Program-made: the position numbers and the translations under genes
Part shown: piece by piece, positions 1 to 14,676 of the stretch
Layout of the letters: the number at the start of each line of letters is the position of its first letter
How positions within the stretch are numbered: position 1 is the first letter of the stretch
Virus record (IMG/VR): IMGVR_UViG_2718217897_000010
Span: 1-16,044 of that record
From: a virus
Lineage: Duplodnaviria > Heunggongvirae > Uroviricota > Caudoviricetes
Direction: 5' to 3' (one strand)
Length of the DNA stretch: 16,044 nt
Notes under the pieces: generated by a model
The model's database searches: none
The model's input: the letters and a program-made list of their open reading frames with translations, nothing else
Told to the model about the DNA's origin: nothing

Positions 1-642
1 TTATGTTTTTGCAATAGTTAAACCAGATCGTTTAATATACTCATCTAACGTGCCAGAGGTGTCATGTATTTTCGCAACATGATAATTGAGTAAGCTAATT
101 TCTTTAGTTTGTAATTTTGGTGGAGGAATATCCGCTCTACCGCCATCCACAGATACCAATAAAAACCTGTCTAGGAATGCTCCGTCGTAATAAAGCTCAT
201 ACCAATATCCAGTTGCTCTGGGATCTGGATAATTGTTAGCCCAATCTTCTATAAAATTTTCACATTGAATTCCTTCATCAATGAACTTGGCTCGAAAACG
301 AAGACGTGGGTCTTCTTTAAGGAATCGTTCGCTAGCCCATTCCCTTGAAATCCCATGCCAATCTTGAGATGGTTCAGTTTTGGGTATGAAATTTAAGATT
401 TCCTCATATGTCATATCTCTGACAGGTTTACGTTCTGGTAAAAAATATTCTGCTACCGATGGGCTGGCTAAGAACAATGAACTAAGCATTCCCAGAGCGA
501 ATGCGATAGGTTCTATATCAAATCCTGATATCCAAAAAAAAGCTGCTATCAAAGCGGCCCCGAAAAAAATCCCCCCCAATACTCTAAGGGGATGTTGATA
601 TTGTTTTATCCATAACCAGATTGGTGTTAACTTAATTTTCAT
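1..642 (-). CDS. hypothetical membrane protein (213 aa): two predicted N-terminal TM helices, then ~150-aa soluble domain
   Basis: Complete ORF with stop codon at 1-3 and ATG at 642. Hydrophobic stretches VLGGIFFGAALIAAFFWISGF and IAFALGMLSSLFLASPSV near the N-terminus. AT-rich coding sequence. No family recognised. Confidence 0.5.
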   Translation of the reverse strand: MKIKLTPIWLWIKQYQHPLRVLGGIFFGAALIAAFFWISGFDIEPIAFALGMLSSLFLASPSVAEYFLPERKPVRDMTYEEILNFIPKTEPSQDWHGISREWASERFLKEDPRLRFRAKFIDEGIQCENFIEDWANNYPDPRATGYWYELYYDGAFLDRFLLVSVDGGRADIPPPKLQTKEISLLNYHVAKIHDTSGTLDEYIKRSGLTIAKT

Positions 643-1153
643 CTGCCATTCCGATTTGTCTAACTTATTTAGAATTAAGAGGTTGAAATTAAGAATAGAT
701 AATCATACTCACTACGGGCTTTGAATTTTGATATTACAATTATTTCATTTTATTTTCAATTAATTATACGTTATTTATTGAACAAGTTTCCATGCCCTCA
801 GTTAACCAAAATGTCCGTTTCTAGCACACAGCAGCCCTATAGACAGTGGAGTAAAGTCATGGAGGATCGGTGGGAGGAGATGCAAATCCTCTCATACAAA
901 AAATACGTAAAATCTATAACAGCTGGAAATCATTCAATACTCGCACTATTGGAAGTTCACCAGCCAACCGCAGCACGTTCTTGCATACGACGTGCCTGCG
1001 GTTTCAACTCCCGCCAGCTCCACCAATCATGATTGGGTGGCGTAAGGATAATACCAACAAAAACAGCAAGTTATCAGTCCAAGCAGGACACCAACCAGAC
1101 GGTGAGGATACAAAAAAAGATACGCAAAGGAGCCGCGGTGCCCTAGTGACTTG

Positions 1154-1176
1154 AAAGCCCACAGATGTGGGCTTTT
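1154..1176 (+). terminator. putative rho-independent terminator (stem AAAGCCCAC / GTGGGCTTT, loop AGAT, followed by TTTTAT)
   Basis: Perfect 9-bp inverted repeat with GC core read directly from sequence; T-run on the plus strand. Not attached to any convincing upstream gene. Confidence 0.4.
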
Positions 1177-1368
1177 ATGGAATAAAGTACTTGAACCAAC
1201 AGCAAGAAATCAGTCTTGATGCTAAGTACTAGTGATGAAGCCACAACAACTGCTCTCATAAAAACGAAGACACTTATCGTGCCACCATCAAAATCTTTGT
1301 GAGTGTATCCATTTCTTTTTACTTGAACAGAGAAAACAATAATGCTGCTTATTTGCACAGTAAAATAA

Positions 1369-1388
1369 TACTGTATACAAACACAGTG
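1369..1388. promoter_or_regulatory. LexA (SOS) box-like operator TACTGTATACAAACACAGTG
   Basis: Matches the CTGT-N8-ACAG core and 16 of 20 positions of the E. coli LexA consensus TACTGTATATATATACAGTA. Overlaps plausible -35/-10 hexamers on both strands (plus strand TTGCAC-17-TACAAA). Confidence 0.5.
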
Positions 1389-1587
1389 TAGAGGAAGTTT
1401 TATGCATATTCCAACTAGCATGAATGTCTTTCTGTCATAAAATTAATGTCTGTTATAAGCAGTGAGCCCAACCGATGCATGCAGCACATAGCGAACCCAA
1501 ATTACAGCCTTTACAGCCACTATTGTTCACCATTAGACAGATGCGAACATTTTCCTGTATGAAGATATTTAGACTGCTTTTATTTGT

Positions 1588-2685
1588 CTAAAAATTCTCT
1601 CTCTTGTGCTGCATTTTACTCTTATTTTCAAGCATAAGAAACATTGCTGCATTTTGCTCCCAAGATATTTTAGATAAAAACATTTTTTTAGAAAATGATT
1701 GTTCCAATTCTCCCAAAAACGAATCAAGCCACCAATAATATTCCCATCCCTTAGTTGTTAATAAAGACTTGGCATTAAAATCCACTGTAACTACCAAACC
1801 TACTGAATAAATTGAAAATGAATTAAACTCTCTACCCAAATAAAGATTTCCAAATTTCATTGGTAGATTAGCCCCGAATCCCTCGAACACAGGGCGATAA
1901 TTAATCTTAAATCTTTTAGTAACAATACTTATACTAGAGTCGCTCTCTCTTGTGAGCGAACTACTTTTGGGAAGAACTATTTCAAAATGGTCAAAAATTG
2001 CGCCTCCATTGCCATATGCATATACAACTTTACCTATAGATGGTAAAGAACTATAATCCATAAATTGCTCACGTTCATCCATAGCTCTAGAAAAAGTATC
2101 AATAAATCTATTCCCCATAAGAACATCAGGAATACTTTTCCTATCTAGTTTAACCAAATAATCATCGGAAAAAGTTTCATCATCATTAAAATAGCTACTT
2201 AAATGAAGAGCAAGTTTTCTTAAAACATAATACTCAATCGCCTCAATAAATAGTGCATTTGCTTTCATTTTTTTGCTATTTATCCCCTTCCCTTTAAAAT
2301 CAAAAGCATAACCAATTGGCCCCTCAGTCCATGATTTATGAATAGCCTTATTTTCCGCGCATAATCCTTTTAGGTAACGGCTAACCTCTTCGGAAAAATC
2401 GTAGCCTTCAATTGATATCAACTCTTTTTTTTCATTGTCTAAACACACAACCCCCTCAAAATCATATTTCCCATTATTCATAGGATAGGCGTTACGCAGA
2501 AAGATTGTGGCACCTAAAATTATTAGTAGCGCACCAACAACAATCATTTTCAAAAATGACAAGTTAAAATAACCAACAACGCCTGATGACAGTATATTTA
2601 CGCCCAAGGCAATTAACACCGCAACAATGAACACTTCGAATATATTTGTTTTAACGGCTAGTAGATCTGCTATTTTTTTCTTCAT
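1588..2685 (-). CDS. hypothetical membrane-anchored protein (365 aa): two N-terminal TM helices plus ~300-aa soluble domain
   Basis: Long ORF in an AT-rich block. N-terminus MKKKIADLL followed by hydrophobic segments FIVAVLIALGVNILSSGVVGYF and MIVVGALLIILGATIFL. No recognisable catalytic motif. Confidence 0.6.
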   Translation of the reverse strand: MKKKIADLLAVKTNIFEVFIVAVLIALGVNILSSGVVGYFNLSFLKMIVVGALLIILGATIFLRNAYPMNNGKYDFEGVVCLDNEKKELISIEGYDFSEEVSRYLKGLCAENKAIHKSWTEGPIGYAFDFKGKGINSKKMKANALFIEAIEYYVLRKLALHLSSYFNDDETFSDDYLVKLDRKSIPDVLMGNRFIDTFSRAMDEREQFMDYSSLPSIGKVVYAYGNGGAIFDHFEIVLPKSSSLTRESDSSISIVTKRFKINYRPVFEGFGANLPMKFGNLYLGREFNSFSIYSVGLVVTVDFNAKSLLTTKGWEYYWWLDSFLGELEQSFSKKMFLSKISWEQNAAMFLMLENKSKMQHKRENF

Positions 2686-3085: not shown

Positions 3086-3424
3086 TTATGAGTGAACATG
3101 ATGAACAACTATATCTTGCCCTGTTCTATGGGGATACCAACCACAATAGTGGGACAAACCGCCATTAATTAACTCATGCTCTAAATCTTCGTCCACCAGC
3201 ACGACAAGATGCCGCATACTGCGCCCCAGTCGGTCCAGTTTCCAGACCACCAGCGTATCACCTGCCGATAATGTCCTGAGCAGTTTTTTCAGTCCAGGCC
3301 TTTCGGACTTTGTACCGCTTATCTTGTCTTCAAAAATCAGCTCGCATCCTGCACAGTTCAGCGCATTACGTTGTAGATCTGTGTTCTGGTCATTTGTTGA
3401 CACACGTACATAGCCAATAAGCAT
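3086..3424 (-). pseudogene. DNA invertase (serine recombinase, Hin/Gin/Pin family), 3'-truncated
   Basis: Translation from the ATG at 3424: MLIGYVRVSTNDQNTDLQRNAL...GDTLVVWKLDRLGRSM, the classic invertase N-terminus including the catalytic Ser in RVSTNDQ. The ORF stops after ~112 codons and the C-terminal HTH DNA-binding domain is missing in all frames. The track ORF start at 3460 adds 12 non-homologous residues. Confidence 0.75.
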
Positions 3425-3450
3425 GGTAGATCTCCCTGACAAAAGCAGGA

Positions 3451-3843
3451 ATGATGCCATTTGCTCGTTATTTCTGCATTTTCATAAACGTTGGTTTGGG
3501 AGAAGCGGCCAAATTGCCTGCGATTAGTGGCTCTTTATCATCATCTGGCTGGATAAAAATCCCTGTTATAGAGGGGAAGTCTTTTATTATCCAATGGGGA
3601 AGAATCGGACCTTCTGATAGTAAAACTGGTGTTGCAACAGGAAGTTATCCTATTGCTTTTCCAAATTCTGCATTTATGGCATTTATTGCTGAAAAAACCG
3701 CAGTATCCACAGGCCCAATAGGTATTAATTCCTGGGGAGTATCCGAACTAACAAAAACAGAATTAAAGGCCATTTGTGCTGCAAGGACTATATCAACTTC
3801 AGCCGCAACTGAAACAGGTGATTTTCTGGTACTGGGATATTGA
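3451..3843 (+). pseudogene. side tail fibre C-terminal (variable, receptor-binding) segment; lacks the 5' constant part
   Basis: Contains IIQWG and PIAFPN motifs typical of lambdoid/Mu-type tail-fibre C-termini. Begins at the crossover site. Its stop overlaps the start of the downstream tail-fibre assembly gene (ATGA). No upstream constant tail-fibre region is present on this strand. Confidence 0.6.
3479..3504. other. invertase crossover site-like 26-bp imperfect palindrome (hix/gix/pix-like)
   Basis: TTTTCATAAACG-TT-GGTTTGGGAGAA. The reverse complement TTCTCCCAAACCAACGTTTATGAAAA matches about 20 of 26 positions of hixL as I recall it (TTCTTGAAAACCAAGGTTTTTGATAA). It lies next to the invertase gene and inside the 5' end of the tail-fibre segment, as expected for such switches. 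Confidence 0.45.
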
Positions 3844-4313
3844 GCTTCCATAAGGATTATAAAATGTCGAGCATAATATACTACAGCTCTATAAATAATG
3901 CATTTTACCCTGAGCATTTGAAACAAGAATATATTAAATCTAATTCTTTTCCAGCAGATGCAAAACCCGTTAAATATTCTGTTTTCGAAGAATTTGCACT
4001 TAAACCAGCACCAGAAGGAAAATACAGGTGCGTTGGTGAAGATGGAATGCCATCATGGGCAGATATTCCACCACCAACACATGAGGAACAGATTGCCGCA
4101 GCCGAATTGAAAAAGCAGCAATTGATTAACCAGGTCAACGAATACATGAACAGTAAACAATGGCCCGGTAAAGCGGCTATTGGTCGTCTGAAAGGTGAGG
4201 AACTGGCGCAATATAATCTGTGGCTGGATTACCTGGACGCACTGGAAATGGTCGATACTTCCAGTGCTCCAGATATTGAATGGCCTACGCCTCCGGCAGT
4301 TCAGGCCAGATGA
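3840..4313 (+). CDS. tail fibre assembly protein (Tfa family)
   Basis: 157 aa. N-terminus YYSSINNAFYPEHLKQEY and C-terminus LWLDYLDALEMVDTSSAPDIEWP are typical of Tfa/gpU-type chaperones. Translationally coupled to the fibre segment upstream. Confidence 0.8.
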   Translation: MSFHKDYKMSSIIYYSSINNAFYPEHLKQEYIKSNSFPADAKPVKYSVFEEFALKPAPEGKYRCVGEDGMPSWADIPPPTHEEQIAAAELKKQQLINQVNEYMNSKQWPGKAAIGRLKGEELAQYNLWLDYLDALEMVDTSSAPDIEWPTPPAVQAR

Positions 4314-4722
4314 CATCTGGCGCGGTGCTGGTATCAGTTGCCGTCACCGCGTCAATGTAATCCAGCACAGCGTTAAGGCGGGTTGTTTCTGTCTGCGTCA
4401 GTTTACGTCCGGCCTGCAATTTCAGTTGAATCAGACTGATGGAAGCCATTGCTGCATCAATTAGTAACTGGCGCTGTGCTTCTGCCGCGTCTACTGCGGC
4501 ACTGTGTTGTGCCTCAGTGTCTGTCACCCATTTCTCACCATCCCATTTATCGTATGGCGTTAACGGTGAAAGCGTGACATAACCGTCTTTGATGGCACCG
4601 ATATAATCCACTGTAACAGCTGCGCCATTTTCGATTGAGTAAACAGTCTCATTGCGATGGTCTTCTTCATGGCTCCATCCCTTACCTGTAAATATTGGCA
4701 TGGGGTAAGATTTCCGGCTCAT
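4285..4722 (-). CDS. tail fibre assembly protein (Tfa family), second copy in opposite orientation
   Basis: 145 aa. C-terminus AVLDYIDAVTATDTSTAPDVIWPELPEA is the conserved Tfa motif. Converges on the plus-strand Tfa with a 29-bp 3' overlap, as in Mu G / e14 P invertible segments. Confidence 0.75.
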   Translation of the reverse strand: MSRKSYPMPIFTGKGWSHEEDHRNETVYSIENGAAVTVDYIGAIKDGYVTLSPLTPYDKWDGEKWVTDTEAQHSAAVDAAEAQRQLLIDAAMASISLIQLKLQAGRKLTQTETTRLNAVLDYIDAVTATDTSTAPDVIWPELPEA

Positions 4723-5222
4723 GATTCGTTAATTTTCAGAAACGGGTTAGTGGCTTTCTTCTGCCCCGCCAGGCCAATCAGACGCTGGCGGCTGCTGGGG
4801 TCGAGTCCGAGCATTGCCCCCGTGCTGCTCATCTCGGACTCCTGTTCTTTTTTGGCGGTCAGCTCCGGATTTTTGACCCTGCCGCCCATTGCACCGGTGA
4901 TGGTGTTGCCCTGTATGGCAATATTTTTCACGGCACGTCGCCAGAACTCATAGGCCACGCACCACCGCTCAAGTACCGCCAGGTCAGTCACGCACAGCAG
5001 ACCCTGACCGCAGAGTTCTTTGGTTGTCAGTTGCCACATGATCGTGGCGAGAGGGAGATCTTCTTCAGCGAACCACTCCGGTGGCTCAACACCTTTGATG
5101 GGCGTAAAAACAGGTTCATCTTTGTTCAGGGCTCGCTTGCCGGGGTTTCCGGCCAGCGCCTTGCGCGCCGTTGGCTTGGGGCGACGCCCGGAACGCCCCG
5201 CCGTTCCAGCCATATGCGGCAC
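4719..5222 (-). CDS. phage terminase small subunit (P27-family-like)
   Basis: 167 aa. N-terminus MAGTAGRSGRRPKPTARKALAGNPGKRALNKDEP is characteristic of P27-type TerS. Its stop overlaps the start of the Tfa gene (ATGA), so no large terminase or structural genes follow. Confidence 0.65.
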   Translation of the reverse strand: MPHMAGTAGRSGRRPKPTARKALAGNPGKRALNKDEPVFTPIKGVEPPEWFAEEDLPLATIMWQLTTKELCGQGLLCVTDLAVLERWCVAYEFWRRAVKNIAIQGNTITGAMGGRVKNPELTAKKEQESEMSSTGAMLGLDPSSRQRLIGLAGQKKATNPFLKINES

Positions 5223-5338
5223 TCCTGGTTAAATTTCATTTTTCGCGGGTATAAAAAAACGATGGGGCGGGCAGTCCGGAAGACGTCAGGCCGCAGGGAT
5301 TTGACCCGCCCCTCCCCTCAAGCAGTTGAGAATTATTA
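5223..5338. other. putative cos / packaging-initiation region between HNH and terS
   Basis: Intergenic, with GC-rich inverted repeat GGGGCGGG (5264-5271) ... CCCGCCCC (5305-5312). HNH-cos-terS is the usual order in HK97-like cos phages (from memory). Confidence 0.3.
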
Positions 5339-5689
5339 TCACTTCAACCGTTCACGGGCCGTCTTCGCCTTATGACACGGCCAGCACAGACTCTGCAGAT
5401 TACGGTCGGCATCAGTGCCGCCATGCGCTTTAGGAATGATGTGGTCAACGGTTTTCGCCTCGCGCACCACACCGGCACGCAAACACAACTGACACAGGCC
5501 TTTGTCACGCTTCAGCACACGCGCGCGGATAACGTCCCACTTCGAACCATAACCGCGCTGATGACGGGATTGTCCTGGCTTGTATTGCTTCCAGCCTTCG
5601 CCTTTGTGTTGCTTGCAATAACCTGACGGGTCTGTGGTTGTCGATCGGCAGCCGCGAACACGGCAGGCTTTTGGTGTTCGTGGTGGCAT
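5339..5689 (-). CDS. HNH endonuclease (phage packaging-associated)
   Basis: 116 aa. Cys pairs CRVRGC and CQLC, plus DHIIPKAHGG ... NLQSLCWPCH, make up an HNH/zinc-finger motif. Located immediately upstream of terS. Confidence 0.8.
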   Translation of the reverse strand: MPPRTPKACRVRGCRSTTTDPSGYCKQHKGEGWKQYKPGQSRHQRGYGSKWDVIRARVLKRDKGLCQLCLRAGVVREAKTVDHIIPKAHGGTDADRNLQSLCWPCHKAKTARERLK

Positions 5690-5764
5690 TGAAATATTCT
5701 CTCTGATACTGCTCGCACGATATGCATAAAAACCTCCAACAGGCGGTTTATGTGTAGACGTATC

Positions 5765-6676
5765 TCAGTACTTAAATAAGAATTTGCTATTACTTTGAAA
5801 TTGAGATGGTGTGGTTGCAATCGGACTAGATGTCGCAGCTATCTCTTCAAGTAACTCAGCTTTCCAGACATGCCCTAGTTGCAAAGATTCACTATGCGAC
5901 ACTTTGTATTCTGCAGCACTAACGACTTGTTCTAAGAAAAGATCACTGTTTAGCATTTGCATACTTGCATAAACGCCAAGGAAATGAATTTTCATTCCCA
6001 TATCCATGATCATATTCCCTTCTTTTGTAAGATAACCACTGTGCGTGACATAGAATGCCGGAGAGCCTGACATTCCAGGGAAAGCAGAAATATCGACAAC
6101 TATTAATTTCTTCCCATCGAAATCGATATCTGGCTCACTCGCTAAGCTTCCTGTTTTCCATATTGGAAGGTAGTGAGTCGTGTCATGATAACCATGAGGA
6201 TATCCAATCATTACAACAGGAGATGAGGGGTTTATCTGGACATTAGGCAGTGTCGTTGTTTTTGAGACTACTTTTACTCCTGTGTTTACAAACAACTCTT
6301 GAGGCAAAGGCATCAAGATAATGTCTGCCTCTTTATCTGTGGGGTGCTCCAACCACAGCGGTGAACCATCTTTAAACAGAGGCATCGTATGTTTGAATAG
6401 TTTTCCGGTTTTATCTCTCAGCTGAATATCAATACTATCGCCTATAAATGGCTTTACACCCCTTTCGGATGGGCTGATTCCAGTTATTACATGATAGTTA
6501 GTTGCAAGGAAAATGAAACCATTGCTATGTTGATAAAAGAACCCAGTACCTAACGACTTTGACTCTCCATTAGACCTCAAAATTACTAAAGTAGTTACCA
6601 GAGATAGCGGCTGTACGTTTTGCATAAAATTCATCCAACATGAACTTCGATATAGGTTGTAAAAGCATACAATCAT
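5765..6676 (-). CDS. trypsin-like (chymotrypsin-fold) serine protease, cytoplasmic; start codon uncertain
   Basis: Candidate catalytic triad in the canonical order: His in ATNYHVITG, Asp in EADIILMPL, Ser in GMSGSPAF (GDSGGP-like). No signal peptide. AT-rich. Alternative starts at internal Met15 or Met18 (MNFMQNV). Confidence 0.6.
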   Translation of the reverse strand: MIVCFYNLYRSSCWMNFMQNVQPLSLVTTLVILRSNGESKSLGTGFFYQHSNGFIFLATNYHVITGISPSERGVKPFIGDSIDIQLRDKTGKLFKHTMPLFKDGSPLWLEHPTDKEADIILMPLPQELFVNTGVKVVSKTTTLPNVQINPSSPVVMIGYPHGYHDTTHYLPIWKTGSLASEPDIDFDGKKLIVVDISAFPGMSGSPAFYVTHSGYLTKEGNMIMDMGMKIHFLGVYASMQMLNSDLFLEQVVSAAEYKVSHSESLQLGHVWKAELLEEIAATSSPIATTPSQFQSNSKFLFKY

Positions 6677-6742
6677 TCCAGAAAATTCTTAACCAACTAT
6701 TTCCAATATATGAATCGCCAATTCCGATCTAGCTATATAACC

Positions 6743-7015
6743 TCACTTTTCAGCAGAGTTTTTCTCCGAAAGCAGGTGCTCACTCTTTCTAATGTCTAAC
6801 TTATCCCTATTACAAGACGCCAGCGCCGACAACAGGCTTACGTTCAAATCCAGGCTCCCACTCCATGTCAGCGGGTCGGGGATAGCTGGTTGCGGAGTTT
6901 CAGCGGTCAGATTCGCTAGTAGTGGTACCGCCGAAACTGGTACGTAAACTGTCCGCGTACCGGCGCAGCCGTTCAGCTGCACGAGCAGGAACAGGACGGG
7001 CAGCGCAATCATCAT
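6743..7015 (-). CDS. Rz1-like o-spanin (outer-membrane lipoprotein), overlapping the 3' end of Rz in a different frame
   Basis: MMIALPVLFLLVQLNGC followed by a proline-rich mature region (VPVSAVP, TPQPAIPDP). Starts inside Rz and runs past its stop. Lipobox LNGC is non-ideal and the signal peptide lacks a basic residue; the start may instead be the in-frame ATG at 7081. Confidence 0.4.
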   Translation of the reverse strand: MMIALPVLFLLVQLNGCAGTRTVYVPVSAVPLLANLTAETPQPAIPDPLTWSGSLDLNVSLLSALASCNRDKLDIRKSEHLLSEKNSAEK

Positions 7016-7292
7016 TCGCAAAAGCCATTTTGATATCAGCCTGGGTTCTCTGTGACTCCAGTGCGATCTGCTGTTTTGCATGCTGGTTAGCCTCCAGTAC
7101 TGTATTGACGATTTGTAGTGATTGCAGGACGTTATTAGTAATGGCAGTTGCCGATTTGGCATTTTGTACAGCCTCATCAGCACGTTTCTTTTCGTGCTGA
7201 TATTTGCTGTAGTAGTGGTTGGTTGACCAGATGAAAGAACAGACGACAGTTAAAAGGAAAGCAGCGATAATCAGCTTATAGCTCAACTTCAT
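6900..7292 (-). CDS. Rz-like i-spanin
   Basis: 130 aa with one N-terminal TM helix (LIIAAFLLTVVCSFIW) and a charged, probably coiled-coil periplasmic domain. Immediately downstream of the endolysin and overlapping it. Confidence 0.55.
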   Translation of the reverse strand: MKLSYKLIIAAFLLTVVCSFIWSTNHYYSKYQHEKKRADEAVQNAKSATAITNNVLQSLQIVNTVLEANQHAKQQIALESQRTQADIKMAFANDDCAARPVPARAAERLRRYADSLRTSFGGTTTSESDR

Positions 7293-7752
7293 TTACCACC
7301 CCACCAGCCTCTTTAAACCTGGCAATCAGGTCACCGATTTTATGTTCATACTGACCATAACCAGCGCCCGGCAGTGAAGCCCAGATATTGCTGCAACGGT
7401 CGATTGCCTGACGGATATCACCGCGATCAATCATCGGTAAAGCGCCACGCTCTTTAATCTGCTGTAATGCCACGGAGTCCTGGCTTCTGGGAGAGAAGTC
7501 TTTCAGCCCTAGCTGCTTGCGGTAGGCATCCCACCAACGGGAAAGAAGCTGGTAACGTCCGGCTGCTGTTGATTTGAGTTTCGGGTTTAGCGTGACAAGT
7601 TTGCGAGGATGATCGGAGTAATCAGTAAACAGTTCACCACCGACAATGACATCATAACCGTGGTTACGTGTCGGTTGTCGCCCGTTATCCGTTCCTTCTG
7701 ACCATGCAACCATATCCAAGAAAGCTTTACGCTGGGAATTTAGTGCCTGCAT
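7276..7752 (-). CDS. R: endolysin, lambda R-like lytic transglycosylase
   Basis: 158 aa. NSQRKAFLDMVAWSEGTDNGRQPTRNHGYDVIVGGELFTDYSDHPRKLVTLNPKLKS ... is near-identical along its length to lambda R as I recall it, including the catalytic Glu in WSEGT. Confidence 0.9.
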   Translation of the reverse strand: MQALNSQRKAFLDMVAWSEGTDNGRQPTRNHGYDVIVGGELFTDYSDHPRKLVTLNPKLKSTAAGRYQLLSRWWDAYRKQLGLKDFSPRSQDSVALQQIKERGALPMIDRGDIRQAIDRCSNIWASLPGAGYGQYEHKIGDLIARFKEAGGVVNEVEL

Positions 7753-7755
7753 AAA

Positions 7756-8082
7756 TTACTCCTTCGAGCTACCAAATTTGTTACCGATTACTCGCATTGC
7801 AGCCCCACGAATTGCATCGACACCAATCAGCCCAACACCGCCACCAATGGCAACAGAAAGAGATTTAGGCCATCCGACATACTCAAGAGCGGATGCAAAA
7901 GTCAGCGTCAGAGCACCACAGAGCAAAATCTCGAGCGTTTTTCGTTTCCAGCCACCACCACCGCCAAAATAGGCAATGCGCAAGCCAGCCATAACGATCG
8001 ACATAATCACTGCGCCCAGCGGTGTGTCTCCACGCCACCAGCTCTGGAACAACTCCAGCCAGGTATTTGGGTTATGAGGCAT
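7756..8082 (-). CDS. holin (class I, three TM segments, lambda S-like size)
   Basis: 108 aa with three hydrophobic segments and a charged C-terminus (NKFGSSKE). Sits directly upstream of the endolysin with 3-bp spacing. Confidence 0.7.
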   Translation of the reverse strand: MPHNPNTWLELFQSWWRGDTPLGAVIMSIVMAGLRIAYFGGGGGWKRKTLEILLCGALTLTFASALEYVGWPKSLSVAIGGGVGLIGVDAIRGAAMRVIGNKFGSSKE

Positions 8083-8234
8083 TTGTAGTTATCTCTCACC
8101 TCGCTGATACAGCAGGTGCAAATTGAGGGAACATCATGTACAGCAAATTAGAAGCGGAAACGTCAAAGAAGCCGAACCAATGGATAACTGCGGAATAGAC
8201 CAGGACCAACGAATCCCCAGCCCCAGAAACGACA

Positions 8235-8256
8235 AAACCCGCTCGACGGCGGGTTT
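8235..8256 (-). terminator. putative intrinsic terminator on the minus strand upstream of the holin (tR'-like position)
   Basis: Hairpin AAACCCGC-TCGACG-GCGGGTTT. On the minus strand the GC stem is followed by TTTTGTCGTTTCT. Confidence 0.35.
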
Positions 8257-8367
8257 AAGCTGTGTGGCGAAGTAACCACTCTTAACACGATACAATAATT
8301 TTTGCGTACGCGTTAGCGTTTTTGTAAGATTAACAAATAAATCGAAAAATCATAATCGGATGATTTC

Positions 8368-9390
8368 ATGGCAAAATTAAATGCTAGCGAAAGACTCGTT
8401 ACTCATCATAGTCTGACCATTGACACAAAGTTTAGAACCAAGGCAACACAAGAGGTAAAAGCCCAGTGTATATGTCCTGTTCCGGAAATGTACATGCTTG
8501 CCCCATTGATTGTTAAACAAAAGGGACTCGTTCATTCATATGATTCTGGGAATATTGTAGTTACTCTCCAAGATGTACAACTTTATCCTTTACTTCCAGA
8601 TAACTCACCCACGCATATTGTCCTTCTTATTAATAGTGTTGATAAAAATGGAAGTACTACCGTTGTAAAAAATATAAATACTAATGAACGCGTTGAAATC
8701 CAACCAAAATATGAACAAGGTGAAGGCTATGAAGTTTCTACCTATGTTGTCATATCATTAAATGGAAATAAAAGAACCTATGATATGATTTGTACATCTA
8801 CCCCAGGTGTATCTACGGCCCGGTTAAATAGTTTTTTAGACAAAATTCTCTTTGAAGTGGCGAAAGACAATGAAGACTTATTTACCGCAAAACATCCAAC
8901 TAACGTTATTTCTGCAACATCAAAAAAAGAAGTAAAAATACGATACAAACCAATATTTGAATTTACAGGAATGTTAGACAAGGAGCTTTTTAATAAAATA
9001 AGCCAAAAAGGATTATCAGATGTCATATTAGTCAAGGATCAATTCGGAACAATTAATGCTCCTGATGTTAACTCACCTTACATTCCGACTGAAAGTACAT
9101 TAAAATTACTTCCAAATCATGGTGACAATGTTATTGGATGGATTAAAAATGTAGCATCTCATTTCAATAAAAAAATGAATGGTGGTTATGATAAATTAAA
9201 GGTTAAATTCCAAGATCCTGAAACAAATAAACCAAGGCAGGTTGATTTCAAAACCTCAAACATCAATCTTAATAATTTAGAAAAAACATTTATTAAGAAA
9301 AGCATTATCGATAACTTTAATTCGCGCCTGAAGGATTCATATGTTAAAATTGAGCTAGAGTTTGTTGTGAAAATGATAGATTTGATGTGA
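8368..9390 (+). CDS. hypothetical soluble protein (340 aa), first gene of an AT-rich two-gene cargo operon
   Basis: ORF with ATG at 8368. Strongly AT-rich, Asn/Lys/Ser/Thr-rich, no TM segment, no recognisable NTPase, nuclease or NTase motif. 7-bp gap to the downstream gene, which has its own SD (GTGAGG). Confidence 0.6.
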   Translation: MAKLNASERLVTHHSLTIDTKFRTKATQEVKAQCICPVPEMYMLAPLIVKQKGLVHSYDSGNIVVTLQDVQLYPLLPDNSPTHIVLLINSVDKNGSTTVVKNINTNERVEIQPKYEQGEGYEVSTYVVISLNGNKRTYDMICTSTPGVSTARLNSFLDKILFEVAKDNEDLFTAKHPTNVISATSKKEVKIRYKPIFEFTGMLDKELFNKISQKGLSDVILVKDQFGTINAPDVNSPYIPTESTLKLLPNHGDNVIGWIKNVASHFNKKMNGGYDKLKVKFQDPETNKPRQVDFKTSNINLNNLEKTFIKKSIIDNFNSRLKDSYVKIELEFVVKMIDLM

Positions 9391-9397
9391 GGTTATT

Positions 9398-9982
9398 ATG
9401 CCAATACTTTCAGTTTTCTCTCATCTAGGCAAGCCGTTTGGATATCTTTTTATTAAAGGTATTAGCGGCAAAGCTGCATATGATTGGGTAGCGCCAATTC
9501 TACTTACTTCTATCACAGCAGTACTTTTCATTCTATTAAAAATCCCTGTCAAAGATTTATTTGATGACAATGGTTTCATTAAATCAATCGTTTCATTTAT
9601 CTCTAACCTACCAGGGTTTTATATTGCCGCTCTGGCCGCCATAGCAACTTTCAATAGAGCTGAGATTGATTTACCATTGATTAGCAATGAAAGAAATGCC
9701 TCTATTGAAATAAAAGTAACAAAAGAAAATGGAAAAGTAGTAAATTCAGAGGAGGTTCTGACCAGACGATTATTTCTTTGCATGCTATTCTCTTTTTTAA
9801 CAGCATTAAGCATTGTTATAATAATACTTAATGCTATATTTTCACCATTAATCAATGTCTATCAAAACAGTTTTGTTTTAATGGTTTATACTGTTGTATT
9901 TACTTTCCTCGTTTGGCAACTCTTAGTATCAACTTTCTTTGGATTATATTATCTCGGAAACAGAATTCATATGAATTATTAA
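9398..9982 (+). CDS. hypothetical integral membrane protein (194 aa, four predicted TM helices)
   Basis: Hydrophobic segments at about residues 30-49, 64-85, 125-148 and 159-186, with a ~40-residue charged loop between TM2 and TM3. Coupled to the upstream 340-aa gene. Confidence 0.6.
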   Translation: MPILSVFSHLGKPFGYLFIKGISGKAAYDWVAPILLTSITAVLFILLKIPVKDLFDDNGFIKSIVSFISNLPGFYIAALAAIATFNRAEIDLPLISNERNASIEIKVTKENGKVVNSEEVLTRRLFLCMLFSFLTALSIVIIILNAIFSPLINVYQNSFVLMVYTVVFTFLVWQLLVSTFFGLYYLGNRIHMNY

Positions 9983-10002
9983 GCCCTACAGGGGCTTAAT
10001 AA
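9976..10002. repeat. 11-bp perfect inverted repeat TTATTAAGCCC-TACAG-GGGCTTAATAA spanning the stop codons of two convergent genes
   Basis: Read directly. The left arm contains the TAA stop of the 194-aa gene (9980-9982) and the spacer/right arm contains the TAG stop of the Q-like gene (9986-9988). Confidence 0.6.
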
Positions 10003-10378
10003 TCAACAAAATACCTTCAATCACTCCTATTGCTGCTTGAAGTTGTTTTCTGATTGACCCGTCAGAGCATTTCCGTTTCTTTGCTATTGAACGGAGTGAA
10101 ATACCGATAACAAAGTGAGCAATGATCAGTTCATATTCTTCTGGCTTATATTTCCGCATTCGCGCAACACAGCTGTCAATCATGATTCCTTCATCATCAT
10201 CGCATTGTTGGCGTGTTTTCTTTCCATGAGGTAGTAAACCTTTAAACCCTGCAGCAACAGGCTGCCAGTCCACACCACTGTTAACCGCGGGAAAATTTCC
10301 GAAGAAGACACCACCGAAACGCCGATGTATGTCAATCGCGGTGGTCGCCTGACTATTCTGCAGGAAGACCAGGGACAA
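9986..10378 (-). CDS. Q-like late antiterminator (phage 21/QuuD-type); non-ATG (TTG) start, possibly defective
   Basis: 130 aa containing AAGFKGL, CDDDEGIMIDSCVARM and CSDGSIRKQLQAAIGVIEGIL, which resemble phage-21-type Q proteins as I recall them. The ORF begins with TTG directly after an in-frame TAA; the first internal ATG is at codon ~66. Confidence 0.5.
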   Translation of the reverse strand: MSLVFLQNSQATTAIDIHRRFGGVFFGNFPAVNSGVDWQPVAAGFKGLLPHGKKTRQQCDDDEGIMIDSCVARMRKYKPEEYELIIAHFVIGISLRSIAKKRKCSDGSIRKQLQAAIGVIEGILLIIKPL

Positions 10379-11449: not shown

Positions 11450-11986
11450 ATGTCATTTATTAAAACTTTTTCCGGGAAGCATTTTTATTATGACAGGATA
11501 AATAAAGACGACATCGTTATTAACGATATCGCGGTTTCTCTTTCAAATATCTGTCGCTTTGCAGGGCATCTTTCACATTTCTACAGCGTTGCCCAACATG
11601 CGGTGCTTTGCAGCCAACTGGTACCGCAGGAATTTGCTTTTGAAGCGTTAATGCATGATGCAACAGAAGCGTATTGCCAGGACATCCCGGCGCCACTGAA
11701 ACGCCTTCTTCCTGACTATAAACGGATGGAAGAAAAAATAGATGCAGTAATCCGTGAGAAATACGAGTTGCCCCCGGTTATGAGCACGCCTGTGAAATAT
11801 GCCGATCTAATCATGCTGGCAACCGAACGCCGTGATCTCGGGCTTGATGATGGCTCTTTATGGCCTGTACTGGAAGGTATCCCGGCAACAGAGATGTTCA
11901 AAGTTATTCCACTGGCACCGGGCCATGCCTACGGGATGTTTATGGAACGCTTCAACGAGTTATCGGAATTACGCAAATGTGCATAA
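11450..11986 (+). CDS. HD-domain metal-dependent phosphohydrolase (YfdR-like 5'-deoxynucleotidase family)
   Basis: 178 aa from the ATG at 11450, preceded by GGAGA. Contains the HD motif in ALMHDATEAY. The track ORF start at 11423 is GTG and adds 9 residues. Confidence 0.75.
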   Translation: MSFIKTFSGKHFYYDRINKDDIVINDIAVSLSNICRFAGHLSHFYSVAQHAVLCSQLVPQEFAFEALMHDATEAYCQDIPAPLKRLLPDYKRMEEKIDAVIREKYELPPVMSTPVKYADLIMLATERRDLGLDDGSLWPVLEGIPATEMFKVIPLAPGHAYGMFMERFNELSELRKCA

Positions 11987-12855
11987 CTCATGTAGTTAGT
12001 TTTTCTGGCGGGAGAACATCCGCATATCTTGTTCACCTGATGGAAGAACAAAGAAAGGCTGGCAATAACGTCTGCTACATCTTTATGGATACCGGTTGCG
12101 AACATCCGCTGACATACCGCTTTATCCGGGAGGTTGTGAAGTTCTGGGACATACCACTAACTGTGTTACAGGTCGATATAAATCCTGAGCTTGGGCAGCC
12201 AAATGGTTATACAGAATGGGAGCCAAAGGATATTCAGACACGAATGCCGGTGCTTAAACCGTTTATGGACATGGTTAAAAAGTACGGCACGCCATACATC
12301 GGCGGCGCGTTCTGTACTGATAGGCTAAAACTCATCCCTTTCACGAAATACTGCGATAACCATTTCGGGCGAGGTAATTACATCACATGGCTGGGTATTC
12401 GTGCAGACGAACCCCGTAGGCTGAAACCGAAATCGGGCGTCCGGTATCTTGCCGAGCTGTCAGATTTTGATAAGTCGGATGTTATCCGGTGGTGGCGAAA
12501 ACAACCTTTTGATTTGCAAATCCCGGAGCATCTCGGGAACTGTGTTTTCTGCATCAAAAAGTCAACGCAAAAGCTGGGGCTTGCATGTAAAGACGAACCA
12601 GGTCTGATGCGAGTTTTTAATGAGCTGGTTACAGGCAAACACGTCAGGGATGGTCATCGCAGAACAGGTAAAGACATTATGTACCGTGGTCACCTGACGC
12701 TTGACGGAATTGCCAGAATGTCTGCCAACAGCGACTACAGAAATTTGTATCAGGCGATGGTACAGGCCAGGCGATTCGATACCGGCTCGTGTTCAGAGTC
12801 ATGTGAAATCTGGGGTGATCAATTGGAATTGGAATTCAAAGAGGTAGGGGTATGA
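11977..12855 (+). CDS. PAPS-reductase-like (PP-loop ATP pyrophosphatase superfamily) protein
   Basis: PP-loop motif SFSGGRTS near the N-terminus. Start MCITHVVSFSGG at 11977 overlaps the upstream stop. C-terminal cysteines (CVFC, CSESC). Confidence 0.7.
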   Translation: MCITHVVSFSGGRTSAYLVHLMEEQRKAGNNVCYIFMDTGCEHPLTYRFIREVVKFWDIPLTVLQVDINPELGQPNGYTEWEPKDIQTRMPVLKPFMDMVKKYGTPYIGGAFCTDRLKLIPFTKYCDNHFGRGNYITWLGIRADEPRRLKPKSGVRYLAELSDFDKSDVIRWWRKQPFDLQIPEHLGNCVFCIKKSTQKLGLACKDEPGLMRVFNELVTGKHVRDGHRRTGKDIMYRGHLTLDGIARMSANSDYRNLYQAMVQARRFDTGSCSESCEIWGDQLELEFKEVGV

Positions 12856-13196: not shown

Positions 13197-13546
13197 TGGA
13201 GCCATACAGCCTCACACTCGATGAGGCCTGTCATTTTCTCAAGATATCCAGACCGACTGCCATTAACTGGATACGCACAGGGCGTCTTCAGGCAACACGC
13301 AAAGATCCCACTAAGAATAAATCTCCTTACCTCACAACACGACAAGCCTGCATTGCGGCTCTTCAGTCTCCGCTGCATACTGTCCAGGTGAGCGCGGGTG
13401 ATGGCATAACAGAGGAAAGAAAATGTCACTCTTCCGCAGAGGTGAAATATGGTACGCCAGTTTCACATTGCCGAACGGTAAAAGATTTAAACAGTCTCTT
13501 GGAACAAAGGACAAAAGGCAGGCGACAGAACTCCATGACAAGCTAA
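13196..13546 (+). CDS. xis: excisionase (P22 Xis-like)
   Basis: [38 protein letters not shown] is an HTH excisionase N-terminus. About 116 aa, overlapping the 5' end of int in another frame, as in P22. Confidence 0.7.
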
Positions 13547-14586
13547 AGGCTGAAGCATGGCGGGTCAGCAAACTTGGTGAAATACCTGATATAACGTTCG
13601 AGGAAGCGTGTGTCAGGTGGCTTGAAGAGAAAGCACATAAAAAATCACTGGACGATGACAAAAGCCGGATCGGATTCTGGCTTCAACATTTCGCAGGAAT
13701 GCAACTAAGAGACATTACTGAATCAAAAATTTATTCAGCAATGCAGAAAATGACGAACCGGCGTCATGAGGAAAACTGGAAACTCAGGGCAGAAGCATGC
13801 AGAAAAAAAGGGAAACCTGTTCCAGAATACACGCCAAAACCAGCGTCCGTTGCAACGAAGGCTACGCATCTTTCATTTATAAAGGCCCTACTAAGAGCCG
13901 CAGAGCGTGAATGGAAAATGCTGGATAAGGCACCAATTATTAAAGTGCCTCAACCAAAGAATAAACGGATCCGCTGGCTGGAGCCCCATGAAGCACAAAG
14001 GCTGATTGATGAATGTCCGGAGCCATTAAAGTCTGTTGTTGAATTTGCACTGGCAACAGGCTTAAGACGCTCGAACATCATCAACCTTGAATGGCAACAA
14101 ATAGACATGCAGCGCCGGGTGGCATGGATAAACCCGGAAGAGAGTAAATCAAACCGCGCAATTGGCGTTGCGCTGAATGATACTGCATGTCGCGTATTGA
14201 AAAAACAAATCGGGAATCATCACCGTTGGGTATTTGTGTACAAGGAAAGCTGTACCAAACCAGACGGAACGAAAGCGCCAACGGTCAGGAAGATGCGGTA
14301 TGACGCAAACACAGCCTGGAAAGCGGCGCTGAGACGGGCTGGTATTGATGATTTCAGATTTCACGACTTGAGACACACCTGGGCAAGCTGGCTGGTTCAA
14401 GCCGGAGTCCCGTTGTCAGTGTTACAGGAAATGGGAGGCTGGGAGTCTATCGAAATGGTTCGTCGATATGCTCACCTTGCACCTAATCACCTTACCGAAC
14501 ACGCACGGCAAATAGACTCGATCCTGAACCCATCGGTCCCAAATTTGTCCCAGTCAAAAAATAAGGAAGGTACTAATGATGTGTAA
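13423..14586 (+). CDS. int: tyrosine site-specific integrase (P22 Int-like, 387 aa)
   Basis: N-terminus [49 protein letters not shown]-terminal catalytic region [39 protein letters not shown] carries the conserved H-x-x-R and Tyr. Ends 14 bp from the tRNA 3' end. Confidence 0.9.
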
Positions 14587-14600
14587 CTTATTGATTTAAA

Positions 14601-14676
14601 TGGTGCCGATAATAGGAGTCGAACCTACGACCTTCGCATTACGAATGCGCTGCTCTACCAACTGAGCTATATCGGC
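14601..14676 (-). tRNA. thrW: tRNA-Thr (anticodon CGU)
   Basis: The reverse complement folds as a canonical cloverleaf: acceptor stem GCCGATA/TATCGGC, anticodon loop TTCGTAA, T-arm GGTTCGACTCC, 3' CCA encoded. Confidence 0.95.

What the first reader, a model, noticed from the sequence alone, without database searches (positions are those of the whole stretch)
5223..5338. Putative cos site retained between HNH endonuclease and small terminase
The HNH - intergenic - terS arrangement is what is seen at the joined genome ends of HK97-like cos phages. The intergenic region carries a GC-rich inverted repeat (GGGGCGGG ... CCCGCCCC) in an otherwise ordinary stretch. Although the element lacks a large terminase, a retained cos could let it be packaged by a related helper phage, in the manner of a satellite.
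Basis: partly seen in the sequence, partly recalled or inferred. Interest (0 to 1): 0.35.

Follow-up and report, generated by a model that had tools for sequence, protein, structure and literature searches.

The report
Known cos site in prophage remnant
This short stretch is the DNA cutting-and-packaging signal (cos site) of a well-studied family of Shigella and E. coli phages, left intact in a decayed prophage that has lost the enzyme and capsid genes needed to use it, so it is an ordinary relic and not a new kind of element.

Summary
An intact HNH gene (5339-5689, minus strand), a 125-nt spacer and an intact P27-family small terminase gene (4719-5213, minus strand) are present. The spacer holds an 8-bp GC-rich inverted repeat (5264-5271 and 5305-5312). 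The repeat alone is not beyond chance (9.4% of shuffles) and does not covary in relatives. The cos reading is strongly supported. The arm next to terS is 8 of the 10 bases of TGCCCGCCCC (5273..5264), which exactly matches the cohesive end mapped on virion DNA of Shigella phage SfI. It aligns with the annotated phiP27 cos site and with the physical end of the HK97 record. The other arm belongs to a box (GGGGCGGGTCAAATC) conserved at a fixed 21-nt distance from the cut site in every relative, HK97 included. The host element is a 15.9-kb thrW prophage remnant, 99.9% identical to an intact E. coli prophage. It has lost terL through the tail genes, and also the immunity and replication region. It has no replication module, so it is a recent deletion derivative and not a satellite. 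Packaging by a helper phage is conceivable but untested. E. coli K-12 cryptic prophages DLP12 and Qin decayed the same way. Already known, low interest.

The parts
5339..5689 (-). HNH endonuclease gene (116 aa, intact), the packaging accessory nuclease of HK97-type cos phages
   Evidence: Pfam HNH 5.4e-16 and phrog_144 7.8e-45. It has the same length as SfV orf53 and the TW10828 HNH. It is 45% identical to HK97 gp74 over 42 aa, E 3e-10.
5298..5312 (-). Conserved upstream cos box GGGGCGGGTCAAATC. It includes the arm of the inverted repeat that lies on the HNH side.
   Evidence: TCAAATC and the flanking G residues are invariant in 11 diverged cos regions including HK97. The box is always 21 nt upstream of GAC at the cut site, with no gaps in the alignment. 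The motif occurs once per locus in relatives. Its function is inferred, not shown.
5264..5273 (-). cosN cohesive-end sequence TGCCCGCCCC, a predicted 10-nt 3' overhang. Nicks are inferred at 5274|5273 and 5264|5263.
   Evidence: It exactly matches the 10-nt gap found by run-off sequencing of SfI virion DNA (PMC3636060; SfI record ends). It matches 9 of 10 bases of the annotated phiP27 cos-site CGCCCGCCCC. The last 10 nt of the HK97 record, CGCCGCCAAA, align to the same columns. The 3' polarity is inferred from HK97 and from the fact that SfI showed a gap and not an overlap.
5239..5259 (-). Candidate small-terminase recognition region, a T7 tract followed by ATACCCGCGAAAAA
   Evidence: HK97 TerS binds +15..+29, CTAACCCGATTTTTT, where the C:G pair at 21 and the A-tract are essential (PMC11331095). 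The window has ACCCG at +14..+18 and A5 at +21..+25. This block co-varies with the TerS type in relatives, while the cosN side stays constant. This is inferred: the window TerS and HK97 gp1 show no BLASTP similarity.
4719..5213 (-). Small terminase gene (164 aa, P27 family), intact
   Evidence: Terminase_4 4.2e-20 and phrog_83 1.9e-58. It is 99% identical over its full length to 80 viral contigs. The exact protein occurs on 19 contigs, and 8 of the 10 shown have TerL and portal downstream.
4701..4722 (-). Stub of the large terminase gene, the first 7 codons (MSRKSYP), fused in frame to a tail fibre assembly gene (4285-4700)
   Evidence: Homology to intact prophages stops at 4701. The TW10828 TerL starts MSRKSYPNVN. 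The window ORF reads MSRKSYPMPIFTGKGW and matches Caudo_TAP at 1.7e-26.
14591..14646 (.). att core of 56 bp, overlapping the 3' part of tRNA-Thr (thrW). The identical second copy lies about 1.2 kb beyond the left end of the window. The two bound a 15,879-bp element.
   Evidence: The source contig GCA_965266795.1 (L095) matched the window exactly at every 50-mer checked across the overlap. The 56-bp repeat is at L095 77-132 and 15956-16011. The tRNA is at 14601-14676.

Best explanation
The spacer is the genuine cos site of an SfV/SfI/phiP27-type temperate phage, which uses HK97-style, HNH-dependent cos packaging. It survives unchanged inside a recently decayed prophage at thrW. In an intact relative the site would work as follows. 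A ring of small terminase binds the ACCCGCG plus A-tract region just inside the terS side. Large terminase and the HNH nuclease then nick the two strands 10 nt apart at GAC|TGCCCGCCCC|ATCG, leaving 10-nt 3' cohesive ends. DNA is packaged from there toward terS, which is toward lower window coordinates. The upstream GGGGCGGGTCAAATC box, at a fixed 21-nt distance, is probably a further recognition element for the cutting complex. In this element the site is an orphan. terL, portal, capsid and tail genes are deleted, the immunity and replication region is deleted, and Q has lost its 5' end. The site can therefore do nothing on its own. It is retained because the deletions are recent, not because there is any sign of selection. 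The location, the sequence identity to mapped cos ends, the conserved architecture and the deletions are shown. The nick positions and polarity, the TerS site and the role of the upstream box are inferred.
For: The 10-nt SfI cohesive end TGCCCGCCCC, mapped on virion DNA, is present exactly at 5273..5264. The phiP27 GenBank cos-site feature, CGCCCGCCCC, aligns to the same position. The HK97 record ends exactly 10 nt after the aligned GAC. The spacer is 95% identical to SfV, and every base from the GACGTC in the spacer through to the terS ATG is identical. The motif GGGTCAAATC-N21-GACYGCC is unique in the window, with 0 expected. In viral contigs it has an HNH gene upstream in 74 of 78 cases and a TerS gene downstream in 64 of 68. 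Among 80 close relatives, variation falls in the spacer and upstream of the G-box, while the part from cosN to the terS start is almost invariant. The remnant status rests on three results. Window 4701-10283 is 99.86% identical to the intact TW10828 prophage, which continues into terL and portal. A 7.6-kb block, from the first 53 nt of Q (about 18 codons) through the replication and cI/cro genes, is missing at window 10283. All 80 viral contigs with this terS keep terL.
Against: No physical ends can be measured here. SfV's own record is cut 7 nt upstream of the SfI cos, at 5281|5280, so deposited ends in this family are not all experimental. The TerS-site assignment rests on a short resemblance to HK97, offset by 4 nt, while the two TerS proteins are not detectably similar. 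The base just after the overhang is A in the window and SfV but G in SfI; its effect is unknown.
Confidence: 0.88

Rival explanations
1. One reading: the remnant acts as a helper-dependent, satellite-like mobile element. A superinfecting or co-resident SfV-type phage supplies Q, TerL, capsids and tails. The element excises using its own int and xis, and its cos lets it be packaged and transferred.
For: The att cores are intact and identical, and int (387 aa) and an HTH_17 excisionase-like gene are intact. HNH, cos and terS are all intact. Phages encoding a 100% identical TerS together with TerL and portal circulate in E. coli, and about half of complete E. coli genomes carry this module. A dimer of 31.8 kb would be 0.80-0.86 of the SfV, SfI and SfIV genome lengths. 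There are precedents. The defective O157 prophage Sp4 is packaged, most likely by the terminase of Sp14, whose cos is nearly identical (PMC2669165). Satellites that carry a helper cos include EcCICFT073 and SaPIbov5. PICI-like contigs carry this same cos cassette without HNH or terS.
Against: None of the ORFs tested matched a replication protein family, so there is no route to the concatemers with two cos sites that cos packaging needs. A monomer is 0.38-0.43 of a helper genome and a trimer is 1.15-1.28. Q is truncated and the repressor region is gone, so there is no induction circuit of its own. The element is 99.86% identical to an intact prophage, so it is a deletion product and not a satellite lineage. 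The deletion junction is absent from 5,426 complete E. coli genomes, and the fused terL'-tfa protein it creates was found on only 5 contigs, so there is no sign of spread.
Confidence: 0.08
2. The inverted repeat is an RNA or DNA hairpin, for example an intrinsic terminator at the end of the lysis-HNH transcript (stem GGGGCGGG/CCCGCCCC followed by AUCGUUUUUUU), and not a packaging signal.
For: On the transcribed (minus) strand the stem forms in the minimum-free-energy fold, and a U7 run follows 4 nt after it.
Against: The folding energy is ordinary: z = -0.24, and 69 of 200 shuffles fold at least as well. The loop is 33 nt, and the terminator scan found nothing here. There is no covariation. 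In 6 of 11 relatives the outermost pair and two further pairs of the stem are broken, while both boxes stay conserved as sequence. There is no Rfam match, even at E up to 1. The late operon must read through this point to reach terS.
Confidence: 0.03
3. The GC-rich inverted repeat is a chance feature of an ordinary intergenic spacer, with no function.
For: Repeats of this quality appear in 9.4% of shuffles and 13% of window tiles.
Against: Both arms sit in blocks that are conserved at fixed spacing from E. coli and Shigella phages to Klebsiella phages and HK97. One arm is the experimentally mapped cohesive end.
Confidence: 0.01

Closest known systems
cos sites of Shigella flexneri serotype-converting phages SfI, SfV, SfII and SfIV (thrW-integrating lambdoid myoviruses)
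   Same: The same integration site next to proA. The same order of lysis genes, HNH, cos, terS and terL. An identical 10-nt cohesive end, TGCCCGCCCC. The spacer is 95% identical to SfV. terS DNA is 97-99% identical.
   Different: Here terL and all structural genes are deleted, and so is the immunity and replication region. The serotype-conversion (gtr) genes are replaced by unrelated cargo. One base after the overhang differs from SfI (A versus G).
cos site of Stx2e phage phiP27 (annotated in NC_003356)
   Same: The HNH, cos, terS layout. The upstream box GGGGCGGGTCAAATCC is identical. The overhang CGCCCGCCCC matches 9 of 10 bases. ACCCGCGAAA lies downstream.
   Different: The spacer is only about 66% identical overall. 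phiP27 is a complete phage.
HK97 cos, with gp74 HNH, gp1 TerS and gp2 TerL
   Same: HNH is the last gene and terS the first. The overhang is a 10-nt 3' end. A G-run plus TCAAATC box lies exactly 21 nt upstream of GAC, and the genome end lies 10 nt after GAC. An ACCCG plus A/T tract lies downstream, where HK97 TerS binds.
   Different: The overhang sequence differs (CGCCGCCAAA). TerS proteins are not detectably similar by BLASTP. The ACCCG motif is offset by 4 nt. HK97 has a long non-coding stretch between the HNH gene and cos.
E. coli K-12 cryptic prophages DLP12 (nohD, aaaD', tfaD) and Qin (nohA, stfQ, tfaQ, pinQ)
   Same: The same pattern of decay. The lysis cassette and small terminase gene are kept, the large terminase is truncated or lost, and terS abuts tail fibre, tail fibre assembly and invertase genes.
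   Different: Those are lambda Nu1-type small terminases without an HNH gene. The window element is much younger, with all remaining genes intact and 99.9% identical to a live relative.
cos-carrying phage satellites: P4, SaPIbov5 and Gram-negative PICIs such as EcCICFT073
   Same: A small integrated element of 10-16 kb with int, att sites and a helper-type cos but no large terminase.
   Different: Satellites have their own replication module and a helper-sensing regulator, and they form lineages distinct from phages. This element has neither and is a deletion derivative. Real PICI-like contigs with this cos type do exist, and they look quite different.

Membership tests
HK97-type (HNH-dependent) phage cos site | It lies in the spacer between an HNH endonuclease gene and the small terminase gene, all in one orientation. 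| tested here: met
   HNH is at 5339-5689 and terS at 4719-5213, both on the minus strand.
HK97-type (HNH-dependent) phage cos site | It contains the sequence of an experimentally mapped cohesive end of a close relative. | tested here: met
   TGCCCGCCCC at 5273..5264 is the same as the SfI virion-DNA gap. It also aligns with the phiP27 cos feature and the end of the HK97 record.
HK97-type (HNH-dependent) phage cos site | It has a small-terminase binding site a short distance inside the packaged end. | tested here: inconclusive
   ACCCGCG plus an A5 tract at +14..+25 resembles the HK97 site at +15..+29 and co-varies with TerS type. However, the TerS proteins are not detectably similar, and no binding data exist for this family.
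HK97-type (HNH-dependent) phage cos site | Terminase and HNH cut it to give 10-nt 3' cohesive ends. | not testable with these tools
   This needs virion DNA or an in vitro cleavage assay.
Self-sufficient phage packaging module | The cognate large terminase, portal and capsid genes lie in cis. | tested here: not met
   Only 7 terL codons remain. Homology to intact prophages ends at 4701.
Phage satellite (PICI, P4-like or cos-SaPI) | Integrase and intact att sites. | tested here: met
   int is at 13423-14586, and the 56-bp att cores are identical.
Phage satellite (PICI, P4-like or cos-SaPI) | Its own replication module (primase or replicase plus an origin) that produces concatemers. | tested here: not met
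   No ORF tested with Pfam or PHROGs matched a replication family, and the gene calls on the source contig, including the one ORF outside the window, record none. The replication region of the parent prophage is deleted.
Phage satellite (PICI, P4-like or cos-SaPI) | A means of hijacking helper packaging, either the helper's cos or its own terS. | tested here: met
   An intact cos and an intact terS and HNH are present.
Phage satellite (PICI, P4-like or cos-SaPI) | A lineage distinct from phages, not a recent deletion product of one. | tested here: not met
   Window 4701-10283 is 99.86% identical to the intact TW10828 prophage. The junction is absent from 5,426 complete E. coli genomes.
Phage satellite (PICI, P4-like or cos-SaPI) | Helper-dependent induction and transfer. 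| not testable with these tools
   This needs a marker-transfer experiment.
Cryptic (defective) lambdoid prophage | It is bounded by att repeats at a tRNA gene and has lost modules essential for lytic growth. | tested here: met
   It sits at thrW. terL through the tail genes and the cI/cro/replication region are missing, and Q is truncated. The pattern matches DLP12 and Qin.

The most novel reading that the evidence does not exclude
The 15.9-kb remnant may be a nascent helper-dependent element. It keeps intact att sites, int, an excisionase-like gene, HNH, cos and terS, and it carries two candidate anti-phage systems (PDC-M53 and PDC-S45). When an SfV-type phage with the same TerS and cos grows in the cell, the remnant could excise, form dimers of about 31.8 kb (0.80-0.86 of a helper genome) by recombination, and be packaged and transferred. 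That would be a snapshot of a prophage turning into a cos-type satellite that ferries defence genes.
Probability: 0.07. Interest if true: 0.45.

Novelty: already known. Interest (0 to 1): 0.12.

Why it matters
It matters little in itself. The cos site of this phage family has been mapped and annotated, and cryptic prophages that keep cos and the small terminase gene while losing the large terminase are textbook features of E. coli K-12. The practical value is for annotation. The motif GGGTCAAATC-N21-GAC followed by a 10-nt C-rich end marks the genome ends of a very common group of enterobacterial prophages; the module is present in about half of complete E. coli genomes. Two side observations may deserve follow-up by specialists. 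First, the upstream box sits at a fixed distance from the cut site from HK97 to Klebsiella phages, and the HK97 papers read here do not assign it a role. Second, PICI-like contigs carry this HNH-type cos cassette without HNH or terS.

Tried and rejected
(1) I tested the inverted repeat as a significant structure and rejected it. The shuffle test gave 9.4%, and 13% of window tiles have an equal repeat. The RNA fold gave z = -0.24. The pair count across 11 relatives shows no real covariation, and slid controls score about as high. (2) I looked for a known RNA family and found none, neither at gathering thresholds over the whole window nor at E up to 1 over 5100-5450. (3) The scan of 4600-6000 found no promoter-like site anywhere, and its single terminator-like hit lies inside the HNH gene, not in the spacer. 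(4) I compared the small terminase with HK97 gp1 and found no BLASTP similarity. 'HK97-like' therefore holds for the layout, the HNH gene and the cos architecture, but not for TerS sequence. (5) I looked for the attR copy in the window and it is absent. It lies 1.2 kb beyond the left end on the source contig. (6) I looked for the terS-tfa deletion junction in 5,426 complete E. coli genomes and found none. All 80 viral contigs with this terS keep terL. (7) I tried to read the original SfV and phiP27 papers, but they are not held. The SfV cos statement is therefore second-hand, through the SfI paper. (8) My first motif search used a spacing of 22 nt and found nothing. The correct spacing is 21 nt. 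(9) I did not run the large protein-homology, structure-prediction or metagenome searches, because the answer did not depend on them.

Full report
WHAT IS IN THE SEQUENCE. On the minus strand the window encodes, in order:
- a lambda-type holin, an endolysin and Rz (6900-8082);
- an S1-family peptidase (5765-6676);
- a 116-aa HNH endonuclease (5339-5689; Pfam HNH 5.4e-16, phrog_144 7.8e-45);
- a spacer;
- a P27-family small terminase (Terminase_4 4.2e-20, phrog_83 1.9e-58).

Every relative is annotated or called from the ATG at 5213, giving 164 aa, and AGGAG precedes that ATG at 5222-5226. The spacer is therefore 5214-5338. The inverted repeat is real: GGGGCGGG at 5264-5271 and CCCGCCCC at 5305-5312, with 33 nt between the arms.

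IS THE REPEAT MORE THAN CHANCE? Not by itself. A perfect inverted repeat of 8 bp or more with a 3-60 nt spacer appears in 188 of 2000 dinucleotide shuffles of the spacer and in 34 of 266 tiles of 125 nt across the window. Folded as RNA on the transcribed strand, the stem forms, but the energy is ordinary (z = -0.24). No Rfam family matches. The scan of 4600-6000 reports no promoter-like site and no terminator-like site in the spacer.

WHAT IT IS. A search of deposited phage genomes with the HNH-to-terS stretch gave 97-99% identity over the terS side of the query to Shigella flexneri phages SfII, SfIV, SfV and SfI. Several of those records begin inside this spacer.

The SfI paper reports direct sequencing of virion DNA ends. 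Compared with the prophage, 10 nt are missing: 5'-TGCCCGCCCC-3' (PMC3636060). The SfI record ends with exactly those bases. The window carries the same ten bases at 5273..5264 on the minus strand.

The phiP27 record annotates a 10-nt 'cos-site', CGCCCGCCCC, at the aligned position between its HNH and terS genes. When the two ends of the HK97 record are joined and aligned, its last 10 nt, CGCCGCCAAA, fall in the same columns and its first base falls just after them.

A gap, and not an overlap, in run-off sequencing implies recessed 5' ends, that is 3' overhangs. HK97 has 10-nt 3' overhangs. For this window the polarity is an inference.

ARCHITECTURE. I aligned 11 spacers: the window, SfV, SfI, a Salmonella phage, phiP27, three Klebsiella phages, two other E. 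coli phages and HK97. Two blocks are conserved and are separated by variable sequence of constant length.
- The first block is GGG(G/C)GGG(G)TCAAATC.
- The second block is GAC followed by a 10-nt C-rich end.
- There are exactly 21 nt between TCAAATC and GAC in all eleven.

The other arm of the repeat is part of the first block. The pairing between the arms is not maintained. In the six relatives whose overhang starts CGCCGCC, the upstream box stays the same while its supposed partner changes. Cells paired are 74%, against 69% in shuffles and 70.5% when slid by two columns. The repeat is therefore two independent sequence elements that happen to be complementary in the SfV and P27 subgroup.

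Downstream of the cut, the window has T7 and then ATACCCGCGAAAAA (5259..5239). HK97 small terminase binds +15..+29, CTAACCCGATTTTTT. There the C:G pair at position 21 and the A-tract are essential, and the orientation of the A:T pairs matters little (PMC11331095). The window has ACCCG at +14..+18 and A5 at +21..+25. This resemblance is suggestive only, because the two TerS proteins show no BLASTP similarity.

Independent support comes from modularity. I scanned viral contigs for GGGTCAAATC-N21-GACYGCC and analysed 80 of the loci.
- 74 of 78 have an HNH gene upstream.
- 64 of 68 have a TerS gene downstream.
- The 45 nt after the cut fall into types that follow the TerS type (window/P27 type or phi467 type), while the upstream box and cut site stay constant.

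Among 80 close relatives of the window's terS, variation is confined to the spacer between the blocks and to the region upstream of the G-box. From the spacer to the terS start, the sequence is nearly invariant. The composite motif occurs once in the window, with none expected.

THE ELEMENT AROUND IT. The window matched the reverse complement of contig CBDHUB010000012.1 of assembly GCA_965266795.1 exactly at every 50-mer checked across the overlap. The element is integrated at thrW next to proA. It is bounded by identical 56-bp att cores 15,879 bp apart, and the second core lies 1.2 kb beyond the left end of the window.

The closest complete relative is a prophage at the same site in E. coli TW10828. 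Two deletions separate the window from it.
- Window 4701-10283 is 99.86% identical to TW10828, which continues past 4701 into a 577-aa TerL, ymfR and portal. In the window only the first 7 terL codons remain (MSRKSYP), fused in frame to a tail fibre assembly gene.
- At window 10283, a 7.6-kb block is missing. It holds the 5' end of Q, DUF968, KilA-N, RusA, a LexA-like gene, replication genes and cI/cro.

What remains is int, an excisionase-like HTH gene, yfdQ/R-like genes, a PAPS-reductase-like gene, a 5'-truncated Q, two cargo genes, the lysis cassette, a peptidase, HNH, cos, terS, tail fibre assembly fragments, a truncated invertase and unknown cargo. None of the ORFs tested matched a replication protein family.

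The element is a young deletion derivative of an ordinary prophage. The same end state, with lysis genes and terS kept and terS abutting tail fibre, assembly and invertase genes, is annotated in K-12 cryptic prophages DLP12 (nohD, aaaD', tfaD) and Qin (nohA, stfQ, tfaQ, pinQ).

COULD IT BE PACKAGED BY A HELPER? The following points favour it.
- cos, terS, HNH, int and both att sites are intact.
- Phages encoding a 100% identical TerS, followed by TerL and portal, are found on many contigs. The module occurs in about half of complete E. coli genomes.
- Defective O157 prophage Sp4 is packaged, most likely by the terminase of Sp14, whose cos is nearly identical (PMC2669165).
- Satellites that rely on a helper's cos are established.

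The following points count against it.
- cos packaging needs two cos sites about a genome length apart, normally supplied by replication into concatemers. This element has no replication genes.
- A monomer is about 0.4 of a helper genome, a dimer 0.77-0.86 and a trimer 1.15-1.28.
- Its Q is truncated and it has no regulatory region.
- The deletion junction is absent from 5,426 complete E. coli genomes, and the fused terL'-tfa protein it creates occurs on only 5 contigs.

I rate satellite-like transfer as possible but unlikely, at about 0.07-0.08. Retention of cos is fully explained by the youth of the deletions.

COMPARISON AND VERDICT. The site works like, and by every sequence test is a member of, the HK97-type HNH-dependent cos sites. 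More narrowly, it is the SfI/SfV/phiP27 cos. The element is a cryptic prophage. It fails two defining features of a satellite: its own replication module and independent lineage. Nothing here is new in kind, so novelty is 'already known' and interest is low.

Two by-products may interest specialists. The first is the fixed-distance upstream box shared with HK97, which the HK97 papers I read do not assign a role. The second is four small PICI-like contigs that carry this cos cassette without HNH or terS. One has a D5-type primase-helicase, a protease-capsid fusion and a DUF1441 protein. Another has a Nu1-like protein and is followed by clpS and clpA, which I take to be host genes.

Noticed in passing
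window 8368-9982 (+): Two cargo genes between Q and the holin match the PADLOC candidate defence pair PDC-M53A (2.1e-32) and PDC-M53B (2.8e-54). They have no Pfam assignment. The same pair is present in the intact TW10828 prophage.
   Followed up: partly
window 5765-6676 (-): The S1/trypsin-like peptidase between Rz and HNH matches the PADLOC candidate single-gene system PDC-S45 (5.8e-42) and phrog_7688 (unknown function). This slot just upstream of HNH is variable in relatives, which carry DUF6979 or other small genes there, or nothing.
   Followed up: partly
window 4285-4722 (-), junction at 4700|4701: The deletion fused the first 7 codons of terL in frame to a tail fibre assembly gene, giving a 145-aa chimeric ORF. 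This exact protein occurs on 5 contigs in public assemblies. The junction is in none of 5,426 complete E. coli genomes.
   Followed up: yes
window 9986-10378 (-), junction at about 10283: A second deletion of 7.6 kb removed the first 53 nt (about 18 codons) of the Q antiterminator together with the whole immunity and replication region. The remaining Q ORF has only a TTG start in foreign sequence, so the late operon (lysis genes, HNH, terS) probably cannot be switched on by the element itself.
   Followed up: partly
window 3086-4722: This is the remains of an invertible tail-fibre segment. It has two convergent tail fibre assembly genes (4285-4722 on the minus strand and 3840-4313 on the plus strand). 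It also has a tail fibre C-terminal fragment (3451-3843, plus strand) and a truncated Pin/Gin-type invertase with only the N-terminal resolvase domain (3086-3460, minus strand).
   Followed up: no
L153, L166, L186, L136 (IMG/VR contigs): Four small contigs carry the same cos cassette: G-box, TGCC(C/A)GCCCC, then ATCGATTTTTTATACCCGCGAAAAATGAAAA. They have no HNH gene upstream and no P27-type terS downstream. L166 has a D5-type primase-helicase, a ClpP-protease/capsid fusion and a DUF1441 protein before the cos. L153 has a Nu1-like protein, then the cos, then clpS and clpA, which look like host genes. They look like Gram-negative PICIs that exploit SfV/P27-type helpers.
   Followed up: partly
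window 5298-5312 (-), and the same box in L001, L006, L087-L092: The box GGGGCGGGTCAAATC lies exactly 21 nt upstream of the cut-site GAC in all 11 diverged cos regions aligned, including HK97. The HK97 papers read here define only the downstream TerS site, so the role of this box appears to be unassigned.
   Followed up: partly
window 11860-12855 (+): A PAPS-reductase-like gene (weak SspD/DndC-type PADLOC hits, 1.8e-14) replaces yfdS and yfdT of the TW10828 prophage. Homology between the two prophages breaks between window 11984 and 12998.
   Followed up: no
window 1-2685 (-): Two genes of unknown function lie where SfV-type phages carry their O-antigen modification (gtr) genes. They encode 365 aa and 213 aa and have no Pfam match. 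Near the N-terminus of the 365-aa protein there is a hydrophobic stretch. attR lies about 1.2 kb further left, next to the yagP/paoD-like host genes.
   Followed up: no
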